The notes under the pieces: model-generated
What the model was told of the DNA's origin: nothing
The model's database searches: none
What the model saw: only the letters and a program-made list of their open reading frames with translations
Source of the DNA: Dictyostelium discoideum
Lineage: Eukaryota
Direction of reading: 5' to 3'
Assembly (NCBI GenBank): GCA_000004695.1
Contig: CM000154.2
Span: 1,952,001-2,016,000 of the forward strand
Length of the DNA: 64,000 nucleotides
Translations under genes and position numbers: made by a program
Shown: piece by piece, positions 7,111 to 37,962 of the stretch
How the letters are laid out: each line of letters begins with the position of its first letter
How positions within the stretch are numbered: the stretch's first letter is position 1

Positions 7111-7596
7111 TTAAATAATTAATTCCATCATTGTATCACAACGACTATAGACTGAGCTATGAAGAGGAATTAATTTAAAACCTAATTTTTCATATAATTT
7201 AATTGCTGGTGTTAAAATTGAATTTGTTTCCAAAAATAATTTTTTGGCATTTAATTCTTGTTTTGCTTTATTGATTAATGATTGTCCTAATAAGAAACCA
7301 ATTTGTTTTCCTTTTGCTTTTGGTGTTACAGACATTTTAGCAAGCTCATAACAAAACTTTTCAGGCTCTTCTGATTTTAAAAGTGCACATGTTCCAACGA
7401 CCTCTCCATTTAAAATTGCAAATATAATATGACCACCTTTATTTAAAATGTTTTCTTCAGGATTTTCCAATACTTTAATATCCTCCTCTTCCATTTTAAA
7501 ATATTGTGATATCCATTCAACACTTAAATTTTTAAAATTTTCTTTATACTTTGATTCATATGGTACAATTTTAATTTCATCATTTGTTTCAATCAT
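7111..7596 (-). CDS. GNAT-family N-acetyltransferase, 161 aa.
   Basis: Acetyl-CoA binding motif: ...VGTCALL...KQIGFLLGQSLINKAKQ (Q/RxxGxG/A). The track ORF start at 7644 is TTG, and the intervening lysines are an A-tract, so I used the real ATG at 7596 (MIETNDE). Confidence 0.7.
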   Translation of the reverse strand: MIETNDEIKIVPYESKYKENFKNLSVEWISQYFKMEEEDIKVLENPEENILNKGGHIIFAILNGEVVGTCALLKSEEPEKFCYELAKMSVTPKAKGKQIGFLLGQSLINKAKQELNAKKLFLETNSILTPAIKLYEKLGFKLIPLHSSVYSRCDTMMELII

Positions 7597-7852
7597 TTTT
7601 TTTTTTTTTTTTTGATATTTGATTTTTGATTTTTTTTTAAACAATTTTCAAACCAAAAAAAAAAAAAAAAAAACAAAACAATGACAAAAAAAACAAAACA
7701 AAAAAATGAAAAAAAAAAAAATAAAAATAAAAAAAAAAAAAATTTAGGATGACGTTAAACTTACTTTTACATTTGATTTAAATTCTTTTGACAATTCCAT
7801 TTAATTATATTTAATTAATTATTATCAACTTTTTAATAAATAATTGATTATC

Positions 7853-10157: not shown

Positions 10158-10452
10158 ATGAATAACCAATTAGTTCCACAAAATGCAGCAGCCGCAGCCG
10201 CAGCCGCAGCCGCAGCAGCAGCAGCAGCAGCAGCAAATAGTTTAAAATCAAGAAAACCATATACAATCTCAAAACAAAGAGAAAATTGGACAGATGAAGA
10301 ACATCAAAAGTTTTTAGAAGCTTTGACATTATTTGACAGAGATTGGAAAAAGATTGAATCTTTTGTTGGTAGTAAAACAGTTATACAGGTATGTTTTTTA
10401 TATTATTTTAGTAATTTTAAAATTATATAGATTTACAGAAATAGAGAGAGAG

Positions 10453-10485
<33 letters not shown>

Positions 10486-11203
10486 ATTTAAAAATTAATA
10501 AATATATATATTTTAAATATTTAATAGATTAGAAGTCATGCACAAAAATATTTTATAAAAGTTCAAAAAAACAATACAGGTGAAAGAATACCACCACCAA
10601 GACCAAAAAGAAAATCAATTCAACCATATCCACAAAAACAAAAACATGATGGAATGGGAGCATTTATACCAGATTCATTATCGGGTAATCACTTTATAAG
10701 TAGTTCATCATTTGCAACATGGATGACCTATAGAGGATTAATGCCAAATATATCGGAATCACAAATTAATCCAAGTGATCTTCAAAAACAATTGGAACAA
10801 TTACAACAGGCCCAACAATATATTCAACAAGCCGTTACAACTGCACAGAGTTCACAAAGAAATGGTGGGTTACCACCAAATCCTTCAAGTAATAATGGTG
10901 GTACCACTCTAACACCAAACTTTCCAAAAATCTATGCATTCCTTTCAAATCTATTCGAATCAAATGGTACCTCTTTCACTGAGGCTTTATCAGATCTATC
11001 AATGATTGATCGTGAAACAATGCAAATTCTAATGCATAATTTAGCAATCAATCTTGCAAATCAACAATATAGAGATAATCATCAAACACTTTCTGAACAA
11101 TATAGAATGAAAAGAGATGAGGATGAAGATTTAAATGCCATTATGATTTCACCAAGAAATTCAACTGGAAATATAAATGTCTCTGGTGATTTTTATGATA
11201 ATA

Positions 11204-11246
<43 letters not shown>

Positions 11247-11280
11247 TAATAATAATAATAATAATAACAACAATAATAAC

Positions 11281-11359
<79 letters not shown>

Positions 11360-11568
11360 GTGGTGATTTTGGTGATCAAAACCATTCAAATATGGTTAAT
11401 TTAGGAAACTATTATAATAATCATCCAAATCAAAATACTATTAATGCTTTATATTCTTTAAATCAACCTTCAACACTTTCAAATAATCCTTTAAATATGG
11501 TGGGAAATTTAAATCCTCAAAAACAACCACCTTTTAATTTAAATCTAAATATGCAATCTGGTTTTTAA
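10158..11568 (+). CDS. SHAQKYF-class (CCA1/RVE-like) single-Myb DNA-binding protein with a ~60-residue poly-Asn tract, 423 aa. Exons: join(10158..10388, 10528..11568).
   Basis: Myb/SANT: [34 protein letters not shown] | [12 protein letters not shown]. The diagnostic SHAQKYF motif spans a 139-nt GTATGT...AATAG intron. PolyA, polyN and polyQ low-complexity regions are present. Total length is 1272 nt, which is 424 codons. Confidence 0.85.
11190..11360 (+). repeat. Coding (AAT)n trinucleotide repeat encoding ~57 consecutive Asn in the Myb protein.
   Basis: aataataat... with occasional aac. It stays in frame within exon 2 of the Myb gene. Confidence 0.9.
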
Positions 11569-12054: not shown

Positions 12055-12845
12055 ATGGGTCAAGGAAATTCTAAATTATCAAGTGATGATATTAAAAAAA
12101 TAATGAGCAAAACTAATTATACTAGTGAGCAAGTTAGTCAAATCTTAAAGGATTATCAATCAGTTAATCAAGATAGTAAAGGTCTTTCATTGGAAGAGTT
12201 TAAATCATTCTTTTCAATTAGATTTAAAGATTATGATGATGCTTCAATTTTACATATGTTCAAAATTTTCGATAGCGATAAAGTATTTATTTTTTATTTT
12301 ATTTTTAAAATTTTCTATTTTTTTTTATTATTATTTTAAAACACAAAATTGACTAAAAAATTATTATTATTATTATTATTATTATTATTTTAATTTTAGA
12401 ATGGTAGAATTAGTTTTAAAGAATTTGTTGGGTAATTATTATTATTATTATATTATTATTATTATATTATTATTATATTATTATTTTATTAACAATATAT
12501 ATATATTTTTTTTTAATTATAATTTATAGTGCATTATTTATAATTACAAAATCACCAGTTTCAGATAAACTTTCATTTTTATTCGATATGTTTGATCGTG
12601 ATTTAAATGGATATTTAGATTTAGAGGAAAGTTATAATATCCTTAAATTAGCATTAAATACAAGTGTTGGTTTAGGTTTCGATGTTAGTCAAGCTGGAAG
12701 TTTTGCTGAAGGTTTATTAAATAGTATGAATAGAAATTCACATGGTGGTATTACAAAAGAAGAATTCATTAAAAAAGCCTCTGTCAATGATACCTTTGTT
12801 AGAATGTTATGTTTATATCAAAGCTATGATACTTTATTATACTAA
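12055..12845 (+). CDS. N-myristoylated EF-hand neuronal-calcium-sensor/recoverin-family protein (NCS-1/frequenin-like), 191 aa. Exons: join(12055..12282, 12400..12431, 12530..12845).
   Basis: N-terminus MGQGNSKL (myristoylation consensus; compare NCS-1 MGKSNSKL). EF loops: DSDK|NGRISFKEF, reconstituted across intron 1, and DRDLNGYLDLEE. The 32-nt micro-exon and phases are consistent. Length 576 nt is 192 codons, which fits NCS-1 (190 aa). It could be the Dictyostelium ncsA gene, but I cannot verify that. Confidence 0.75.
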
Positions 12846-14630: not shown

Positions 14631-14670
14631 TCAAAAATTAAAGGTAACTTTAATTCTATTCTTTTTTTTT

Positions 14671-14790
14671 TTTTTTTTAAAATAAAACAATAAAATTAAT
14701 GAAAATAAAAAAATTAACTAATTCTTTTTTTTTTAAAATAAAACAATAAAATTAATAAAAATAAAAAAATTAACTAATTCTTTTTTTTTT
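14671..14790. repeat. ~57-bp tandem duplication (TTAAAATAAAACAATAAAATTAAT(G/A)AAAATAAAAAAATTAACTAATTCTTTTTTTT) between vps29 and the first biotin-protein-ligase-like gene.
   Basis: Two nearly identical copies, 14671-14727 and 14728-14790. Confidence 0.6.
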
Positions 14791-15178
14791 TTTTTTTATA
14801 AAAAAAATTTTTTTTTTAAAATCTATTCTTTCTTTAAAATAAAAAACAATCACAAAAATTAAAAAAGAAAGTGAAAAAAAAAAAAAAAAAAAAAAATCTA
14901 TAATTAAACTATTGGGAATGGTCCAAAAAAAAAAAAAAAATTACCAAAATTATTGGTTGAACTGAAAAAAAAAAAAAGTGGGGTATTCTATGAAAATATC
15001 TCTAAAGATTTTGGTCAATTTATTTTTTTGGTAGTTTTACCCTATTTAATTTTTTTTTTTTATGGTAATATTAAAAGGAATATTTTTTTTTTTTTATGGT
15101 AACATTAAAAGGAATTTTTTTTTTCTACCAATCATTATTTTTTTTATCAAATAAATAAATAATAAACAAACATATACA

Positions 15179-16306
15179 ATGATTGATTCAGAGATAGAGT
15201 TAAATAAAGTAATAGTAGTACCATTAATATCAAAAGATTCATTAGATATTAATGATGCAAAAAATTACTATGGAACCGAGTTACACCCAAATCAACCAAT
15301 TCCAACAATAGTTTCAACTCAATCTGAAGTGAATTCTTTAGTTAATCAAAAATCTGGTAATAATCAACAATTGGCCAATGAAGAAAGATTAGTTATATTA
15401 TTAAAACAACAAGAGGTAGAAAAAGATAAAACATTTGATACAAATAAATATTTTAACGAATTATCAACAGATTTATTTGGAAAGAATTTAATTCATACTG
15501 AAGTAATTAGTTCAACACAAGATATAATGTTAAAATATTTAACATATACTCGTCAAGGATTAGTAATGATTGCAGATCAACAAACCGATGGTAGAGGACG
15601 TGATGGAAATAAATTCTTGTCTCCATTGGGATGTTTGTTAATGTCATTCAAATGTAAACAAACTGATTGTAACAAATTACCATTCCTTCAATATTTGACT
15701 GGTATGGCAATGGTCGAAGCAATTCACTCTTTCCCAATTGCATCTGATTTAAATCTTAGTTTGAAATGGCCAAATGAAATCTTTACTAAGGAAGCAGGTA
15801 TTAAGCTTGGTGGAGTCCTCTGTGAACCAAAATATCTTAACAATGAATTTGATGTTGTCATTGGTGTTGGTGTTTATCTTTCAAATTCAAATAATCCATC
15901 AACAACTGTAAATCAATTAATTCACCAGAAACAACAACATGGATCTTCTTTATCATCAACAACAACAAGTACTGATATTCCAATTTATATTAATAGAGAA
16001 GAATTGGTTTCAAAATTCTTTAACAAATTCGAACCAATGTTTATGGAGTTTACAAGAGATGGCTTTAATGCAGATCTTGAAAATAGATACACTGACTTAT
16101 GGATGCATACAAATCAAATTGTAAAAGTAAAAGAAAGAGATTACCATCATGTTAAAATCATTGGTATTTCTGATAGAGGTTTCCTTAAAGTTATTGAATG
16201 TGATGCTGGTGGTAATTCATCTCCAAACTCTCAAATCGTTGAACTAAACCCAGAAAGTACTTCATTTGATATTCAAAATTTAATTTTAATGCAAAAATCA
16301 CAATAA
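15179..16306 (+). CDS. Biotin--protein ligase (BirA/holocarboxylase-synthetase catalytic domain)-like protein, copy 1, 375 aa.
   Basis: BPL/LplA/LipB fold motifs: QTDGRGRDGNKFLSPLGCLLMSF (compare BirA QTAGRGRRGRKWFSP) and LKWPNEIF (conserved KWPND lysine). Confidence 0.7.
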   Translation: MIDSEIELNKVIVVPLISKDSLDINDAKNYYGTELHPNQPIPTIVSTQSEVNSLVNQKSGNNQQLANEERLVILLKQQEVEKDKTFDTNKYFNELSTDLFGKNLIHTEVISSTQDIMLKYLTYTRQGLVMIADQQTDGRGRDGNKFLSPLGCLLMSFKCKQTDCNKLPFLQYLTGMAMVEAIHSFPIASDLNLSLKWPNEIFTKEAGIKLGGVLCEPKYLNNEFDVVIGVGVYLSNSNNPSTTVNQLIHQKQQHGSSLSSTTTSTDIPIYINREELVSKFFNKFEPMFMEFTRDGFNADLENRYTDLWMHTNQIVKVKERDYHHVKIIGISDRGFLKVIECDAGGNSSPNSQIVELNPESTSFDIQNLILMQKSQ

Positions 16307-16882
16307 TCAAAATAAATAATTAAAATAAATAATTTAATATTGGTTTTGTTTTGGTTTGTGTTTTTCCTGTTAATGTTAATTTTTTTTTATTATAAGGAGA
16401 CCTTTTTTTTTTTATTATTTATCATTCATTTCTTATAACTTGTTTTTTATTTTGAAAAATAGATTTAAAATAAAAAAAAAAAAAAAAAAAATTATAATTA
16501 TTATAAATTCTTCATAGAATAGAATTTAAAAAGTACTTTTTGATTTGGAAAAAAAAAAAAAAAAAATAAAAAAAAAGTTTTTAAAAAAAAAAAAAAAAAA
16601 TGTTTGAAAATGGAAATTTTTTTTTATTTCTAGTTAGATGTGTGTCTTTTTCAACTTACTTTTTTAAGTGGTTAACTGGATGAATTTATTATAATTATTC
16701 TTTTTTTTTTTTACAAAGGTAATGAAATATAAATTTTTTTTTATTTTTTTTTTTTTTGTTATAAAAAGGAAATTTTTTTTGTTATTTAAACCCAATTTTT
16801 TTTTTTTTTTTTAATATTAATAGTAATTATTTTTTTTTTCCTTCCCTCATTATTTTTTTTAAATAATAAATAAACATATACA

Positions 16883-18010
16883 ATGATTGATTCAGATATA
16901 GAATTAAATAAAATAATAGTAGTACCATTAATATCAAAAGATTCATTAGATATTAATGATGCAAAAAATTACTATGGAACCGAGTTATACCCAAATCAAC
17001 CAATTCCAACCATAGTTTCAGCTCAATCTGAAGTAGATTCTTTAATTAATCAAACTTCTGGTAATAATGATGAAGAAAGATTAGTTTTATTATTAAAACA
17101 ACAACAACAAGAGGTAGAAAAAGATAAAACATTTGATACAAATAAATATTTTAACGAATTATCAACAATTTTATTTGGAAAGAATTTAATTCATTCTGAA
17201 GTAATTAGTTCAACACAAGATATAATGTTAAAATATTTAACATATACTCGTCAAGGATTAGTAATGATTGCAGACCAACAAACCAAAGGTAGAGGACGTG
17301 GTGTAAATAAATTCTTGTCTCCATTGGGATGTTTGTTAATGTCATTCAAATGTAAACAAACTGATGGTAATAAATTACCATTCCTTCAATATTTGGCTGG
17401 TATGGCAATGGTCGAAGCAATTCACTCTTTCCCAAGTGCATCTGATTTAAATCTTCGTTTGAAGTGGCCAAACGATATCTATAGTAATGAACCAGGTATG
17501 AAAGTTGGTGGTGTCCTCTGTGAATCAAATTATCTTAACAATGAATTTGATGTTGTCATTGGTGTTGGTGTTAATCTTTCAAATTCAAATAATCCATCAA
17601 CAACTATAAATCAATTAATTCAAAAGAAAAAATATGGATTTTCATCATCATCATTGGCAACAAGTACTGATATTCCAATTTATATTAGTAGAGAAGAATT
17701 GGTTTCAAAATTCTTTAACAAATTCGAACCAATGTTTATGGAATTTACAAGAGATGGCTTTAATGCAGATCTTGAAAATAGATACACTGACTTATGGATG
17801 CATACAAATCAAATTGTAAAATTTAAAGAAAGAGATAACCATCATGTTAAAATCATTGGTATTTCTGATAGTGGTTTCCTTAAAGCTATTGAATGTGATG
17901 CTGATGGTAATACATCTTCTGACTCTGAAACCGTTGAGCTTCACCCAGATGGTACTTCATTTGATATTCAAAACTTAATTTTAATGCAAAAATCACAACA
18001 ACCAAAATAG
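16883..18010 (+). CDS. Biotin--protein ligase-like protein, copy 2 (tandem paralogue of 15179..16306), 375 aa.
   Basis: About 90% nucleotide identity to copy 1 across the CDS and the immediate 5' leader. Motifs QTKGRGRGVNKFLSPLGCLLMSF and LKWPNDIY. The duplication unit is ~1.7 kb. Confidence 0.7.
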   Translation: MIDSDIELNKIIVVPLISKDSLDINDAKNYYGTELYPNQPIPTIVSAQSEVDSLINQTSGNNDEERLVLLLKQQQQEVEKDKTFDTNKYFNELSTILFGKNLIHSEVISSTQDIMLKYLTYTRQGLVMIADQQTKGRGRGVNKFLSPLGCLLMSFKCKQTDGNKLPFLQYLAGMAMVEAIHSFPSASDLNLRLKWPNDIYSNEPGMKVGGVLCESNYLNNEFDVVIGVGVNLSNSNNPSTTINQLIQKKKYGFSSSSLATSTDIPIYISREELVSKFFNKFEPMFMEFTRDGFNADLENRYTDLWMHTNQIVKFKERDNHHVKIIGISDSGFLKAIECDADGNTSSDSETVELHPDGTSFDIQNLILMQKSQQPK

Positions 18011-37889: not shown

Positions 37890-37962
37890 GGTTTTATAGT
37901 GTAATTGGTTAGCACCCAGGACTTTGAATCCTGTAATCTGAGTTCGAGTCTCAGTAGAACCA
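37890..37962 (+). tRNA. tRNA-Gln (anticodon UUG).
   Basis: GGTTTTATAGTGTAATTGGTTAGCACCCAGGACTTTGAATCCTGTAATCTGAGTTCGAGTCTCAGTAGAACCA. It forms a cloverleaf with a 7-bp acceptor stem, A-box TAGTGTAATTGG, B-box GAGTTCGAGTCTC, anticodon loop CTTTGAA, and near-identity to the canonical eukaryotic tRNA-Gln(UUG) sequence as I remember it. A T-run terminator follows. Confidence 0.9.

What the first reader, a model, noticed from the sequence alone, without database searches (positions are those of the whole stretch)
15179..18010. Recent tandem duplication of a biotin-protein-ligase-like gene with divergent active-site loops
Two 375-codon paralogues lie head-to-tail 1.7 kb apart. Their nucleotide identity is high, including the 5' leaders (...ATAAACA(A)ACATATACAATGATTGATTCAGA).
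- Both keep the KWPND lysine.
- Both have a non-canonical biotin-binding loop: GRGRDGNKF in copy 1 and GRGRGVNKF in copy 2, against the canonical GRGRRGRxW.
- They differ in surface-loop residues, for example QTDCNK versus QTDGNK, EPKYL versus ESNYL, and a 3-aa insertion in copy 1 at NNQQLANEE.

Tandem paralogues of an enzyme that is usually single-copy suggest subfunctionalisation. Candidates are specificity for different carboxylases, or one copy acting as a lipoate/biotin ligase.
Basis: partly seen in the sequence, partly recalled or inferred. Interest (0 to 1): 0.5.

Follow-up and report, generated by a model that had tools for sequence, protein, structure and literature searches.

The report
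Fast-evolving spare biotin ligase gene pair
These are the annotated Dictyostelium discoideum genes bpl2 and bpl1, two members of an old, fast-evolving and dispensable tandem array of biotin-ligase copies that sits beside a third, strictly conserved biotin ligase gene (bpl3) 313 kb away, so the pair is real but mostly ordinary gene-family turnover.

Summary
Two intact 375-codon ORFs (15179-16306 and 16883-18010, + strand) are 85% identical in protein and 93.4% in DNA. They are D. discoideum AX4 bpl2 and bpl1, already annotated as biotin--[acetyl-CoA-carboxylase] ligases. Both pass the curated BirA-ligase model, not a lipoate-ligase model.

The duplication is not recent, and subfunctionalisation is not supported.
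- A third gene, bpl3, keeps the eukaryotic consensus loop (GKGRGGNQW). It is the positional orthologue of the single gene in other dictyostelids and is under strong purifying selection (dN/dS 0.03-0.06).
- The array copies evolve about ten times faster (dN/dS 0.3-0.7).
- The array has 2-3 copies in sister genomes, three of them pseudogenes. In D. citrinum only a ~120-nt relic remains.
- A gene-conversion tract explains part of the similarity between the two AX4 copies.
- All array copies replace an otherwise invariant adenine-stacking Trp with Phe.
- Copy 1 (bpl2) also changes five more conserved active-site and C-terminal residues (G142D, D200E, Y202F, N233Y, D359E/G360S), and has 18 unique changes against 5 in copy 2.

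Best reading: bpl3 is the housekeeping enzyme, bpl1 a probably active accessory ligase, and bpl2 a degenerating or functionally shifting copy. Interest is modest.

The parts
15179..16306 (+). Copy 1 = D. discoideum AX4 bpl2 (XP_636521, Q54IF6), 375 aa, 'type A' array paralogue; intact ORF, single exon
   Evidence: ORF. Translation is identical to P0003. Pfam PF03099 at 69.3 bits and TIGR00121 at 112.8 bits against a cut-off of 83.1. AlphaFold2 model has pLDDT 88.7, and all top PDB matches are biotin protein ligases.
16883..18010 (+). Copy 2 = D. discoideum AX4 bpl1 (XP_636522, Q54IF5), 375 aa, 'type C' array paralogue; the type that is intact and distal in all five genomes
   Evidence: ORF. 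100% identical to P0001. PF03099 at 85.1 bits and TIGR00121 at 118.9 bits. Position and intactness in other genomes.
15107..15178 (+). Promoter-proximal / 5' leader element of copy 1 (AAAAGGAAT-T10-C...TCATTATTTTTTTT...AAATAATAAACAAACATATACA), shared by array copies
   Evidence: Alignments. The element is conserved across paralogue types and strains. Further upstream the sequence is not alignable.
16822..16882 (+). Corresponding promoter-proximal / 5' leader element of copy 2
15590..15616 (+). Biotin-binding loop of copy 1, G138-F146 (GRGRDGNKF): G142D and W146F relative to the eukaryotic consensus G[RK]GRGxNxW
   Evidence: Column counts over 113 non-array homologues: G 106/113, N 113/113, W 113/113. 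Coordinates read.
17288..17314 (+). Biotin-binding loop of copy 2, G136-F144 (GRGRGVNKF): only W144F departs from the consensus
15764..15778 (+). KWPNE in copy 1 (K196-E200): the invariant Asp is replaced by Glu, and the next-but-one residue is Y202F
   Evidence: Asp 113/113 and Tyr 112/113 in other homologues. By K183/K187 register, the equivalent Asp180 of S. aureus BPL networks with Arg122 of the loop (PMC5039522).
17462..17476 (+). KWPND in copy 2 (K194-D198), canonical
15803..15805 (+). Catalytic lysine K209 of copy 1 (KLGGVLCE motif), retained
   Evidence: Lys 113/113. Its role is taken from PMC2384007: Lys183 in E. coli and Lys111 in P. horikoshii, in KxAGxLVE.
17501..17503 (+). Catalytic lysine K207 of copy 2 (KVGGVLCE), retained
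15863..15877 (+). GVGVY in copy 1 (G229-Y233): the invariant adenine-binding Asn of GxGxN is replaced by Tyr
   Evidence: Asn 113/113. Asn212 of S. aureus BPL and Asn158 of M. tuberculosis BPL hydrogen-bond the adenine (PMC5039522 and PMC2384007). The residue mapping by motif register is my inference.
17561..17575 (+). GVGVN in copy 2 (G227-N231), canonical
16247..16270 (+). C-terminal cap motif NPESTSFD in copy 1 (the consensus among homologues is xPDG[NT]SFD): D359E and G360S
   Evidence: Pro 109/109, Asp 100/109, Gly 101/109. Listed as copy-1-specific changes.
17942..17965 (+). C-terminal cap motif HPDGTSFD in copy 2, canonical
15969..16108 (+). Minimal gene-conversion tract, copy 1 side (outer bounds 15941-16216)
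   Evidence: Nine consecutive 'concerted' informative sites with no orthology-supporting site between alignment columns 858 and 1147, permutation p=2e-5. Coordinates.
17664..17803 (+). Minimal gene-conversion tract, copy 2 side (outer bounds 17639-17911)
16304..16315 (+). Copy 1 stop (TAA, from CAA) three codons before the ancestral stop (16313-16315); shared with the type-A orthologue of strain FIW
   Evidence: Alignments.

Best explanation
The two ORFs are bpl2 (copy 1) and bpl1 (copy 2) of Dictyostelium discoideum AX4 chromosome 5. They belong to a lineage-specific tandem array of accessory biotin protein ligase paralogues.

**Origin.** The array arose from the ancestral ligase gene bpl3 before the D. 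discoideum / D. firmibasis split. It has since evolved by birth and death: 2-3 copies per genome, some pseudogenes, whole-array deletion in D. citrinum, and occasional gene conversion.

**Division of labour.**
- bpl3, 313 kb away, is the housekeeping holocarboxylase synthetase that biotinylates the carboxylases.
- bpl1 keeps the biotin pocket, the catalytic Lys and the other invariant motif residues checked, except the adenine-stacking Trp (now Phe). It is probably still an ATP-dependent biotin ligase, redundant with bpl3 or of minor use.
- bpl2 keeps the biotin pocket and the catalytic Lys. It has lost the adenine-binding Asn (N233Y), the loop-anchoring Asp (D200E), a loop Gly (G142D) and the C-terminal PDG motif. 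It is most likely impaired in ATP binding or adenylate retention, so it is either a decaying copy or one drifting to an altered function.

**Shown:** homology, fold, motif states, evolutionary rates, copy-number variation, pseudogenes, the D. citrinum relic, and gene conversion.
**Inferred:** which gene does the housekeeping, and the catalytic consequences of the substitutions.
For: **Identity.** Both proteins are 100% identical to the annotated AX4 proteins. TIGR00121 scores are above the cut-off. Copy 1 has a BPL fold with a C-terminal cap.

**bpl3 is ancestral and constrained.**
- The bpl3-UFC1-SAM_PNT gene order is kept in AX4, two other strains, D. firmibasis and D. purpureum.
- bpl3 dN/dS is 0.03-0.06, against 0.30-0.53 for type C, 0.44 for type A and 0.36 for type B at the same dS. 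Copy 1 versus copy 2 gives 0.72. Fisher p ranges from 4e-4 to 2e-5.
- bpl3 keeps GKGRGGNQW, KWPND and GIGLN.

**Age.**
- The array clade has 100% bootstrap support, and bpl3 + D. firmibasis has 100% support excluding the array.
- dS is about 0.9 for bpl1 versus bpl3, against 0.55 for D. discoideum versus D. firmibasis bpl3.
- Paralogue types A, B and C are shared across genomes.

**Dispensability.**
- Copies with frameshifts or truncation occur in two genomes. They carry 10-bp and 2-bp deletions, a 13-bp insertion and loss of the 5' end.
- In D. citrinum the flanking genes lie 273 bp apart, with only a ~120-nt 3' relic interrupted by indels.

**Asymmetry.** Copy 1 has 18 unique changes against 5 in copy 2 (p=0.011). 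They include G142D, D200E, Y202F, N233Y, D359E and G360S at positions that are 94-100% conserved in 113 homologues.

**Residue roles.** Roles of the Trp, Asn, Asp and Lys come from PMC5039522, PMC12582158 and PMC2384007.

**Precedent.** An essential plus a dispensable BPL paralogue is known in Arabidopsis and Plasmodium (PMC5856565).
Against: - dN/dS of the array copies is 0.3-0.7, not 1, so some constraint remains on all three types. AX4 copy 1 is an intact ORF with a conserved promoter-proximal element.
- The most variable positions cluster in the ligand-contacting loop: residues 140-142 each have three or more states between invariant GRGR and KF. This could reflect selection for change rather than decay.
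- No expression or activity data were found for any of the three genes.
- No bpl3-type protein from strains FIY, FIZ or D. citrinum is in the protein database. Universality of bpl3 in the D. discoideum complex is therefore not shown. This is probably an annotation gap, because D. citrinum shows no ligase there at all.
- Frameshifts in public long-read assemblies can be errors, although the multi-base indels argue against that here.
- Trp->Phe may be fully compatible with catalysis.
Confidence: 0.6

Rival explanations
1. Subfunctionalisation: bpl1 and bpl2 are both active ligases. They have divided the ancestral job, for example by preferring different carboxylases (ACC, PCC, MCC, PC) or working in different compartments or developmental stages.
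For: - Both ORFs are intact, keep the biotin pocket and the catalytic Lys, and have dN/dS<1.
- The C-terminal cap motif differs between the copies. From general knowledge, the cap contributes to substrate recognition.
- Array copies lack the ~19-residue acid-free N-terminal extension of bpl3, which could mean different targeting.
Against: - A third, canonical and strongly constrained gene already exists.
- Copy number varies from 0 to 3, and types A and B are pseudogenes or absent in several genomes. That is not expected for partitioned essential functions.
- Copy 1's changes hit nucleotide-pocket residues invariant in 113/113 homologues, not just surface residues.
Confidence: 0.15
2. Neofunctionalisation under diversifying selection: the array encodes BPL-derived proteins whose remodelled nucleotide pocket and biotin-binding loop give a new activity. 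Possibilities include a different nucleotide or acyl substrate, leaky or promiscuous biotinylation, or biotin or biotin-analogue sensing or sequestration. Turnover would be driven by an ecological conflict, for example with bacterial prey that make biotin antimetabolites.
For: - The invariant Trp is replaced by Phe in every array copy, and this replacement is then conserved.
- Loop residues 140-142 are hypervariable between invariant flanks.
- Copy-number variation and fast evolution are typical of conflict genes.
- Residual constraint, with dN/dS 0.3-0.5 within each type.
- E. histolytica, another amoebozoan, has nine BPL copies of unknown purpose (PMC5859476).
Against: - No pairwise dN/dS exceeds 1.
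- The same pattern is produced by relaxed constraint.
- Complete loss in D. citrinum and pseudogenes elsewhere.
- No functional data.
Confidence: 0.15
3. Assembly artefact: the two copies are a falsely duplicated or collapsed region.
For: None found beyond the high similarity.
Against: - The copies differ at 73 of 1110 aligned CDS bases, carry four indels and have unrelated flanks.
- Both are present with the same 576-nt spacer in an independent assembly.
- Orthologous arrays exist in four other genomes.
Confidence: 0.01
4. One copy is a lipoate (LplA/LipB-type) ligase rather than a biotin ligase.
For: The only support is that Pfam PF03099 is a family shared by biotin and lipoate ligases.
Against: - The best NCBIfam hits for both copies are all biotin-ligase models, with TIGR00121 above its cut-off and no LplA/LipB model at E<=0.1.
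- All top PDB sequence and fold matches are biotin protein ligases.
- The biotin-specific GRGR loop and SSTQ motif are retained.
Confidence: 0.01

Closest known systems
D. discoideum bpl3 (XP_636438, Q54I33) and the single-copy BPL of other dictyostelids
   Same: Same short, plant-like architecture: an ~95-120 aa N-terminal domain, the PF03099 catalytic domain and a C-terminal cap, with no PF09825 BPL_N. About 47-52% identical. Same biotin pocket and catalytic Lys.
   Different: - bpl3 keeps G[RK]GRGGNxW, KWPND and GxGxN, has dN/dS 0.03-0.06 and conserved synteny.
- The array copies have Trp->Phe, evolve about ten times faster, vary in copy number, and lack about 19 N-terminal residues.
Arabidopsis HCS1/HCS2 and Plasmodium HCS1/HCS2 paralogue pairs
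   Same: A eukaryote with one biotin ligase that carries the biotinylation function and a second paralogue whose loss gives no phenotype and whose role is unknown (PMC5856565).
   Different: - Both Plasmodium paralogues were shown to be active ligases. Here activity is untested and copy 1 has lost invariant nucleotide-pocket residues.
- Here the extra copies form a copy-number-variable tandem array with pseudogenes and gene conversion.
Entamoeba histolytica biotin protein ligase expansion (nine copies)
   Same: Unexplained multiplication of BPL genes in an amoebozoan, all weakly expressed (PMC5859476).
   Different: An independent expansion in a parasite. I made no sequence comparison of active-site states.
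Class I/II bacterial and archaeal BPLs (E. coli BirA, P. horikoshii, A. aeolicus, M. tuberculosis, S. aureus)
   Same: Same catalytic fold and C-terminal cap (Foldseek E about 1e-17, TM up to 0.82 on the target). Same GRGR, KWPN, K-x-G-G and GxGx motifs.
   Different: - No HTH repressor domain.
- An extra eukaryote-type N-terminal domain.
- Trp->Phe in both copies, plus Asn->Tyr and Asp->Glu in copy 1.

Membership tests
Biotin protein ligase / holocarboxylase synthetase (EC 6.3.4.15; TIGR00121, PF03099) | Catalytic-domain profile match above the curated cut-off | tested here: met
   TIGR00121 scores 112.8 bits (copy 1) and 118.9 bits (copy 2) against a cut-off of 83.1. PF03099 scores 69.3 and 85.1 against a cut-off of 21.
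Biotin protein ligase / holocarboxylase synthetase | BPL fold: catalytic alpha/beta domain plus SH3-like C-terminal cap | tested here: met
   The copy 1 AlphaFold2 model has pLDDT 88.7 and pTM 0.90. The top 50 PDB matches are all BPLs and cover whole class I chains (TMt up to 0.82). Copy 2 was not modelled (85% identical). Pfam BPL_C is only a sub-threshold hit in copy 2 (E 0.078).
Biotin protein ligase / holocarboxylase synthetase | Biotin-pocket residues: S-T of SSTQ, Q of QQT, and GRGR of the biotin-binding loop | tested here: met
   All are present in both copies. The corresponding columns are 95-100% conserved in 113 homologues. Roles are from PMC5039522.
Biotin protein ligase / holocarboxylase synthetase | Catalytic lysine in K-x-[AG]-G-[IV]-L (E. 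coli K183) | tested here: met
   K209 in copy 1 and K207 in copy 2. Lys is 113/113 in homologues. Role from PMC2384007.
Biotin protein ligase / holocarboxylase synthetase | Adenine-stacking Trp closing the biotin-binding loop (S. aureus Trp127, yeast W430) | tested here: not met
   Phe is found in both window copies and in every array copy, against Trp in 113/113 other homologues. Role from PMC5039522 and PMC12582158. An aromatic residue is retained, so stacking may persist.
Biotin protein ligase / holocarboxylase synthetase | Adenine-binding Asn of GxGxN (S. aureus Asn212, M. tuberculosis Asn158) | tested here: inconclusive
   Copy 2 meets it (N231). Copy 1 does not (Y233). Asn is 113/113 in homologues. 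The residue correspondence is inferred from motif register.
Biotin protein ligase / holocarboxylase synthetase | KWPND Asp that anchors the loop Arg | tested here: inconclusive
   Copy 2 meets it (D198). Copy 1 has Glu (E200). Asp is 113/113 in homologues.
Biotin protein ligase / holocarboxylase synthetase | ATP-dependent biotinylation of BCCP domains | not testable with these tools
   This needs an enzyme assay or complementation of a birA or bpl1 mutant.
Lipoate-protein ligases LplA/LipB | Best profile and structure matches to lipoate ligase models | tested here: not met
   No LplA/LipB NCBIfam model hit at E<=0.1. PDB matches are BPLs.
Class III eukaryotic BPL (yeast Bpl1 / human HCS type) | Large N-terminal BPL_N domain (PF09825) | tested here: not met
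   Pfam finds only PF03099. The fungal homologues carry PF09825. The dictyostelid and plant ones are short.
Class II bifunctional BirA repressor | N-terminal HTH domain and full-length equivalog score | tested here: not met
   The PRK11886-type models score 62-98 bits against cut-offs of 293-489, and the matches start at model position ~73-85, after the HTH.

The most novel reading that the evidence does not exclude
The array is not merely decaying. It would be a BPL-derived family with a deliberately remodelled nucleotide pocket (Trp->Phe fixed in all copies; Asn->Tyr and a hypervariable loop in types A and B) that still binds biotin but does something new. Candidates are biotin or biotin-analogue sensing or sequestration, altered nucleotide use, or leaky proximity-type biotinylation. 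Copy-number turnover would be driven by ecological conflict.
Probability: 0.15. Interest if true: 0.6.

Novelty: new member of a known kind. Interest (0 to 1): 0.3.

Why it matters
If the reading is right, this is a clear, datable example of how an essential single-copy cofactor ligase spawns spare copies. Those copies then relax, convert each other, decay or are deleted, while the parent gene stays frozen.

It also has practical value for Dictyostelium work. bpl3, not bpl1 or bpl2, is the gene to target when manipulating endogenous biotinylation, for example to reduce background in BioID/TurboID and streptavidin blots.

The loss of residues that are otherwise invariant in 113 eukaryotic ligases makes bpl1 and bpl2 cheap natural test cases. 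They can show how much the adenine-stacking Trp and the GxGxN Asn matter for catalysis.

The genes themselves are already annotated, so the gain is interpretive rather than a discovery of a new system.

Tried and rejected
- Literature searches for any study of Dictyostelium biotin ligases, by name and by accession, found nothing relevant.
- A search for mutational data on the loop Trp (W123) found nothing relevant.
- A first bootstrap tree with Biopython's distance calculator timed out. I replaced it with a numpy Kimura-distance NJ. Placement of the array relative to D. purpureum stays unresolved (44% versus 48%).
- I looked for bpl3-type proteins of strains FIY and FIZ and of D. citrinum. None is in the database. 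D. citrinum shows no ligase at all there, so I treat this as an annotation or database gap, not as absence. I could not fetch those loci.
- I considered that AX4 copy 1 is an A/B hybrid from unequal crossing-over, because it carries the type-B Tyr codon and a few other B-diagnostic sites. Seven B-like sites against 23 A-like sites are too few to decide.
- I considered that the pseudogene frameshifts are assembly errors. I rejected this for the 10-bp and 2-bp deletions, the 13-bp insertion and the 5' truncation. The two 1-bp deletions, one next to a substitution, could still be errors.
- HMM scores do not separate array copies from bpl3, so profile membership says nothing about activity.
- No tool gave model coordinates, so distances of the substituted residues to the ligand could not be measured. 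The mapping rests on motif register and published structures.


Full report
**1. What is in the window**

The window is about 20% G+C and rich in homopolymer and poly-Asn/Gln tracts.
- Two intact 375-codon ORFs lie head to tail on the + strand at 15179-16306 (copy 1) and 16883-18010 (copy 2).
- They share 320/377 residues (85%) and 1037/1110 aligned coding bases (93.4%).
- Their translations are identical to two annotated Dictyostelium discoideum AX4 proteins. Copy 2 is 'biotin--[acetyl-CoA-carboxylase] ligase 1' (XP_636522). Copy 1 is 'ligase 2' (XP_636521).
- The downstream convergent gene is DDB_G0288867 on the 5.13-Mb chromosome.

The pair is not an assembly artefact.
- The flanks do not align.
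- The same pair with the same 576-nt spacer is present in an independent assembly.
- Syntenic arrays exist in four other genomes.

- Copy 1 reads KWPNE, not KWPND.
- The insertion is 4 aa, not 3.
- The catalytic lysine is not the KWPND one. It is the Lys of K-x-G-G-V-L (PMC2384007), and both copies retain it.

**2. Family assignment**

- Both proteins match Pfam PF03099.
- Both exceed the curated cut-off of TIGR00121 birA_ligase: 112.8 and 118.9 bits against 83.1.
- No lipoate-ligase model appears at E<=0.1.
- The closest solved structures by sequence are biotin protein ligases of A. aeolicus, H. influenzae, P. horikoshii and E. coli.
- An AlphaFold2 model of copy 1 is confident (pLDDT 88.7, pTM 0.90). 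Its best 50 PDB matches are all biotin protein ligases and span the catalytic domain plus the C-terminal cap.
- There is no BPL_N domain (PF09825) and no HTH. These are short, plant-like ligases with an ordered N-terminal domain of about 95 residues.

**3. A third, canonical gene exists**

AX4 encodes bpl3 (XP_636438, 404 aa) on the same chromosome. In the newer assembly it lies at 2.326 Mb, against 2.012 Mb for bpl1, so the two are 313 kb apart.
- bpl3 carries GKGRGGNQW, KWPND and GIGLN.
- It is flanked by UFC1 and a SAM_PNT gene in AX4, in two other D. discoideum-complex genomes, in D. firmibasis and in D. purpureum. It is therefore the positional orthologue of the single ligase gene found in each of the other dictyostelids sampled.

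**4. Age and dynamics of the array**

In a bootstrapped NJ tree:
- The array proteins form one clade (100%).
- D. discoideum bpl3 groups with D. firmibasis to the exclusion of the array (100%).
- The position relative to D. purpureum is unresolved.

Synonymous divergence between bpl1 and bpl3 is about 0.9. It is 0.55 for bpl3 between D. discoideum and D. firmibasis, and 1.33 against D. purpureum.

Across five genomes three paralogue types can be recognised:

| Type | Diagnostic features | AX4 member |
|---|---|---|
| A | QQLA insert, GRGRDG[NS]KF, KWPNE, early stop | copy 1 (bpl2) |
| B | GRGR[CA]GYKF, KWPNE, GVGVY | none |
| C | GRGRG[VE]NKF, KWPND, GVGVN, HPDG | copy 2 (bpl1) |

- Types A and B form a derived clade (100%) nested among C-type sequences.
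- Type C is intact and distal in all five genomes.
- Types A and B are intact in some genomes and absent from others.
- They are disabled in two genomes by a 10-bp deletion, a 2-bp deletion, a 13-bp insertion and loss of the 5' end.

In D. citrinum the two flanking genes are only 273 bp apart.
- tblastn finds no ligase there.
- A ~120-nt relic of the ligase 3' end, interrupted by 4-, 8- and 6-nt indels, sits in the expected place and orientation.
- So the array predates the D. discoideum / D. citrinum split, and D. citrinum has lost it.

Within AX4, nine consecutive informative sites group the two AX4 copies against their orthologues. They lie between alignment columns 899 and 1038 (window 15969-16108 and 17664-17803). 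No orthology-supporting site occurs between columns 858 and 1147 (permutation p=2e-5). This is a gene-conversion tract. Hence 'recent duplication' is wrong. The similarity reflects moderate age plus concerted evolution.

**5. Selective regime**

At comparable synonymous divergence (dS 0.04-0.2):

| Comparison | dN/dS |
|---|---|
| bpl3 between strains | 0.03-0.06 |
| Type C orthologues | 0.30-0.53 |
| Type A orthologues | 0.44 |
| Type B orthologues | 0.36 |
| AX4 copy 1 vs copy 2 | 0.72 |

The excess of nonsynonymous change over bpl3 is significant (Fisher p=4e-4 to 2e-5). So constraint on every array copy is relaxed about tenfold but is not abolished.

**6. Active-site states**

Against 113 non-array eukaryotic homologues:
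- Every array copy replaces the loop Trp (113/113) with Phe.
- Copy 2 otherwise keeps every conserved motif position examined.
- Copy 1 additionally has:
  - G142D (Gly 106/113)
  - D200E (Asp 113/113)
  - Y202F (Tyr 112/113)
  - N233Y (Asn 113/113)
  - D359E and G360S in the C-terminal PDG motif (100/109 and 101/109)

A relative-rate count using bpl3 and D. firmibasis as outgroup gives 18 changes unique to copy 1 against 5 unique to copy 2 (p=0.011).

Published structures assign roles to these residues:
- The Trp stacks on the adenine of ATP (PMC5039522, PMC12582158).
- The GxGxN Asn hydrogen-bonds the adenine: S. aureus Asn212 and M. tuberculosis Asn158.
- The KWPND Asp is equivalent, by register, to S. 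aureus Asp180, which networks with the loop Arg.

The mapping by motif register is my inference, because no coordinates were available. The biotin-pocket residues (SSTQ, QQT, GRGR) and the catalytic Lys are intact in both copies.

**7. Interpretation**

The best-supported reading has three parts.
- bpl3 is the housekeeping holocarboxylase synthetase.
- The window's pair belongs to an accessory, dispensable array evolving by birth and death with gene conversion. Within it, bpl1 (copy 2) is probably still an active ligase.
- bpl2 (copy 1) is impaired in the nucleotide half of the reaction. It is either decaying or shifting function.

Subfunctionalisation between carboxylases is not excluded but has nothing specific in its favour. 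The lipoate-ligase idea and the artefact idea are refuted. A neofunctionalisation reading remains possible at low probability, based on Phe fixed in all copies, hypervariable loop residues 140-142 between invariant flanks, and residual constraint.

**8. Comparison with the known**

Multiple BPL genes in a eukaryote have precedents.
- Arabidopsis HCS1/HCS2 and Plasmodium HCS1/HCS2 each have one paralogue that carries biotinylation and one that is dispensable with unknown role (PMC5856565).
- Entamoeba histolytica has nine copies (PMC5859476).
- No paper on the Dictyostelium genes was found.

The genes are already annotated. What is added here is the evolutionary context and the loss of invariant residues. 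I rate it a new member of a known kind, with modest interest (0.3).

**9. Limits**

- There are no expression or activity data.
- bpl3 could not be confirmed in strains FIY and FIZ or in D. citrinum, because no such protein is in the database.
- dS near 0.9 and above is close to saturation in this AT-rich genome.
- The trees are distance-based.
- Pseudogene calls rest on public assemblies without read-level checks.

Noticed in passing
window 37890-37962 (+): A tRNA-Gln (anticodon TTG) gene is the only tRNA in the window.
   Followed up: no
window 14666-14777 and about 15062-15124: A 56-nt two-copy tandem repeat (96% identical) lies upstream of copy 1. Just upstream of copy 1 there is also a ~35-nt direct repeat, ATGGTAA[T/C]ATTAAAAGGAAT followed by a T-run. 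Its second unit is the promoter-proximal element shared by all array copies.
   Followed up: partly
L004 4861-8473 (strain FIY, GCA_054859205.1): A 3.6-kb insertion separates the two pseudogene copies. It contains a Cys-rich, Pro/Thr-repeat ORF (7549-7812). The public 831-aa gene model (PA14/Dicty_CTDC plus BPL) fuses it to the frameshifted ligase copy and is probably a mis-annotation.
   Followed up: partly
L005 11626-12804 (strain FIR) versus window 16883-18010: The type-C orthologue in strain FIR has a run of about 21 Gln where AX4 bpl1 has four. The poly-Gln length in the N-terminal linker varies among all copies.
   Followed up: no
L006 3001-4215 (AX4 bpl3) versus window 15179 and 16883: bpl3 has about 19 extra N-terminal residues with no acidic residue (MFKITMAKSTNNTAISSALNSLKQNYTPS). 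The array copies start MIDSEIELNK, with three acidic residues. This may mean a difference in organelle targeting. No predictor was available.
   Followed up: no
protein database: No bpl3-type protein from strains FIY, FIZ or from D. citrinum is in the collection. D. citrinum shows no biotin ligase there at all, so this is probably an annotation gap, but it is unresolved.
   Followed up: partly
window 10158-11568 and 12055-12845 (+): A Myb/SANT-like ORF (…[13 protein letters not shown]…) is followed by an ORF with a ~60-residue Asn run. Two exons of an EF-hand protein also lie here. The same neighbours flank the array in the other genomes and in D. citrinum.
   Followed up: no
window 15875-15877 (Tyr233 codon of copy 1) and alignment columns 793-892: AX4 copy 1 is type A over most of its length but carries the type-B Tyr codon and a few other B-diagnostic sites. 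Either Tyr is ancestral to A+B and was reverted in other A copies by conversion, or AX4 copy 1 is an A/B recombinant.
   Followed up: partly
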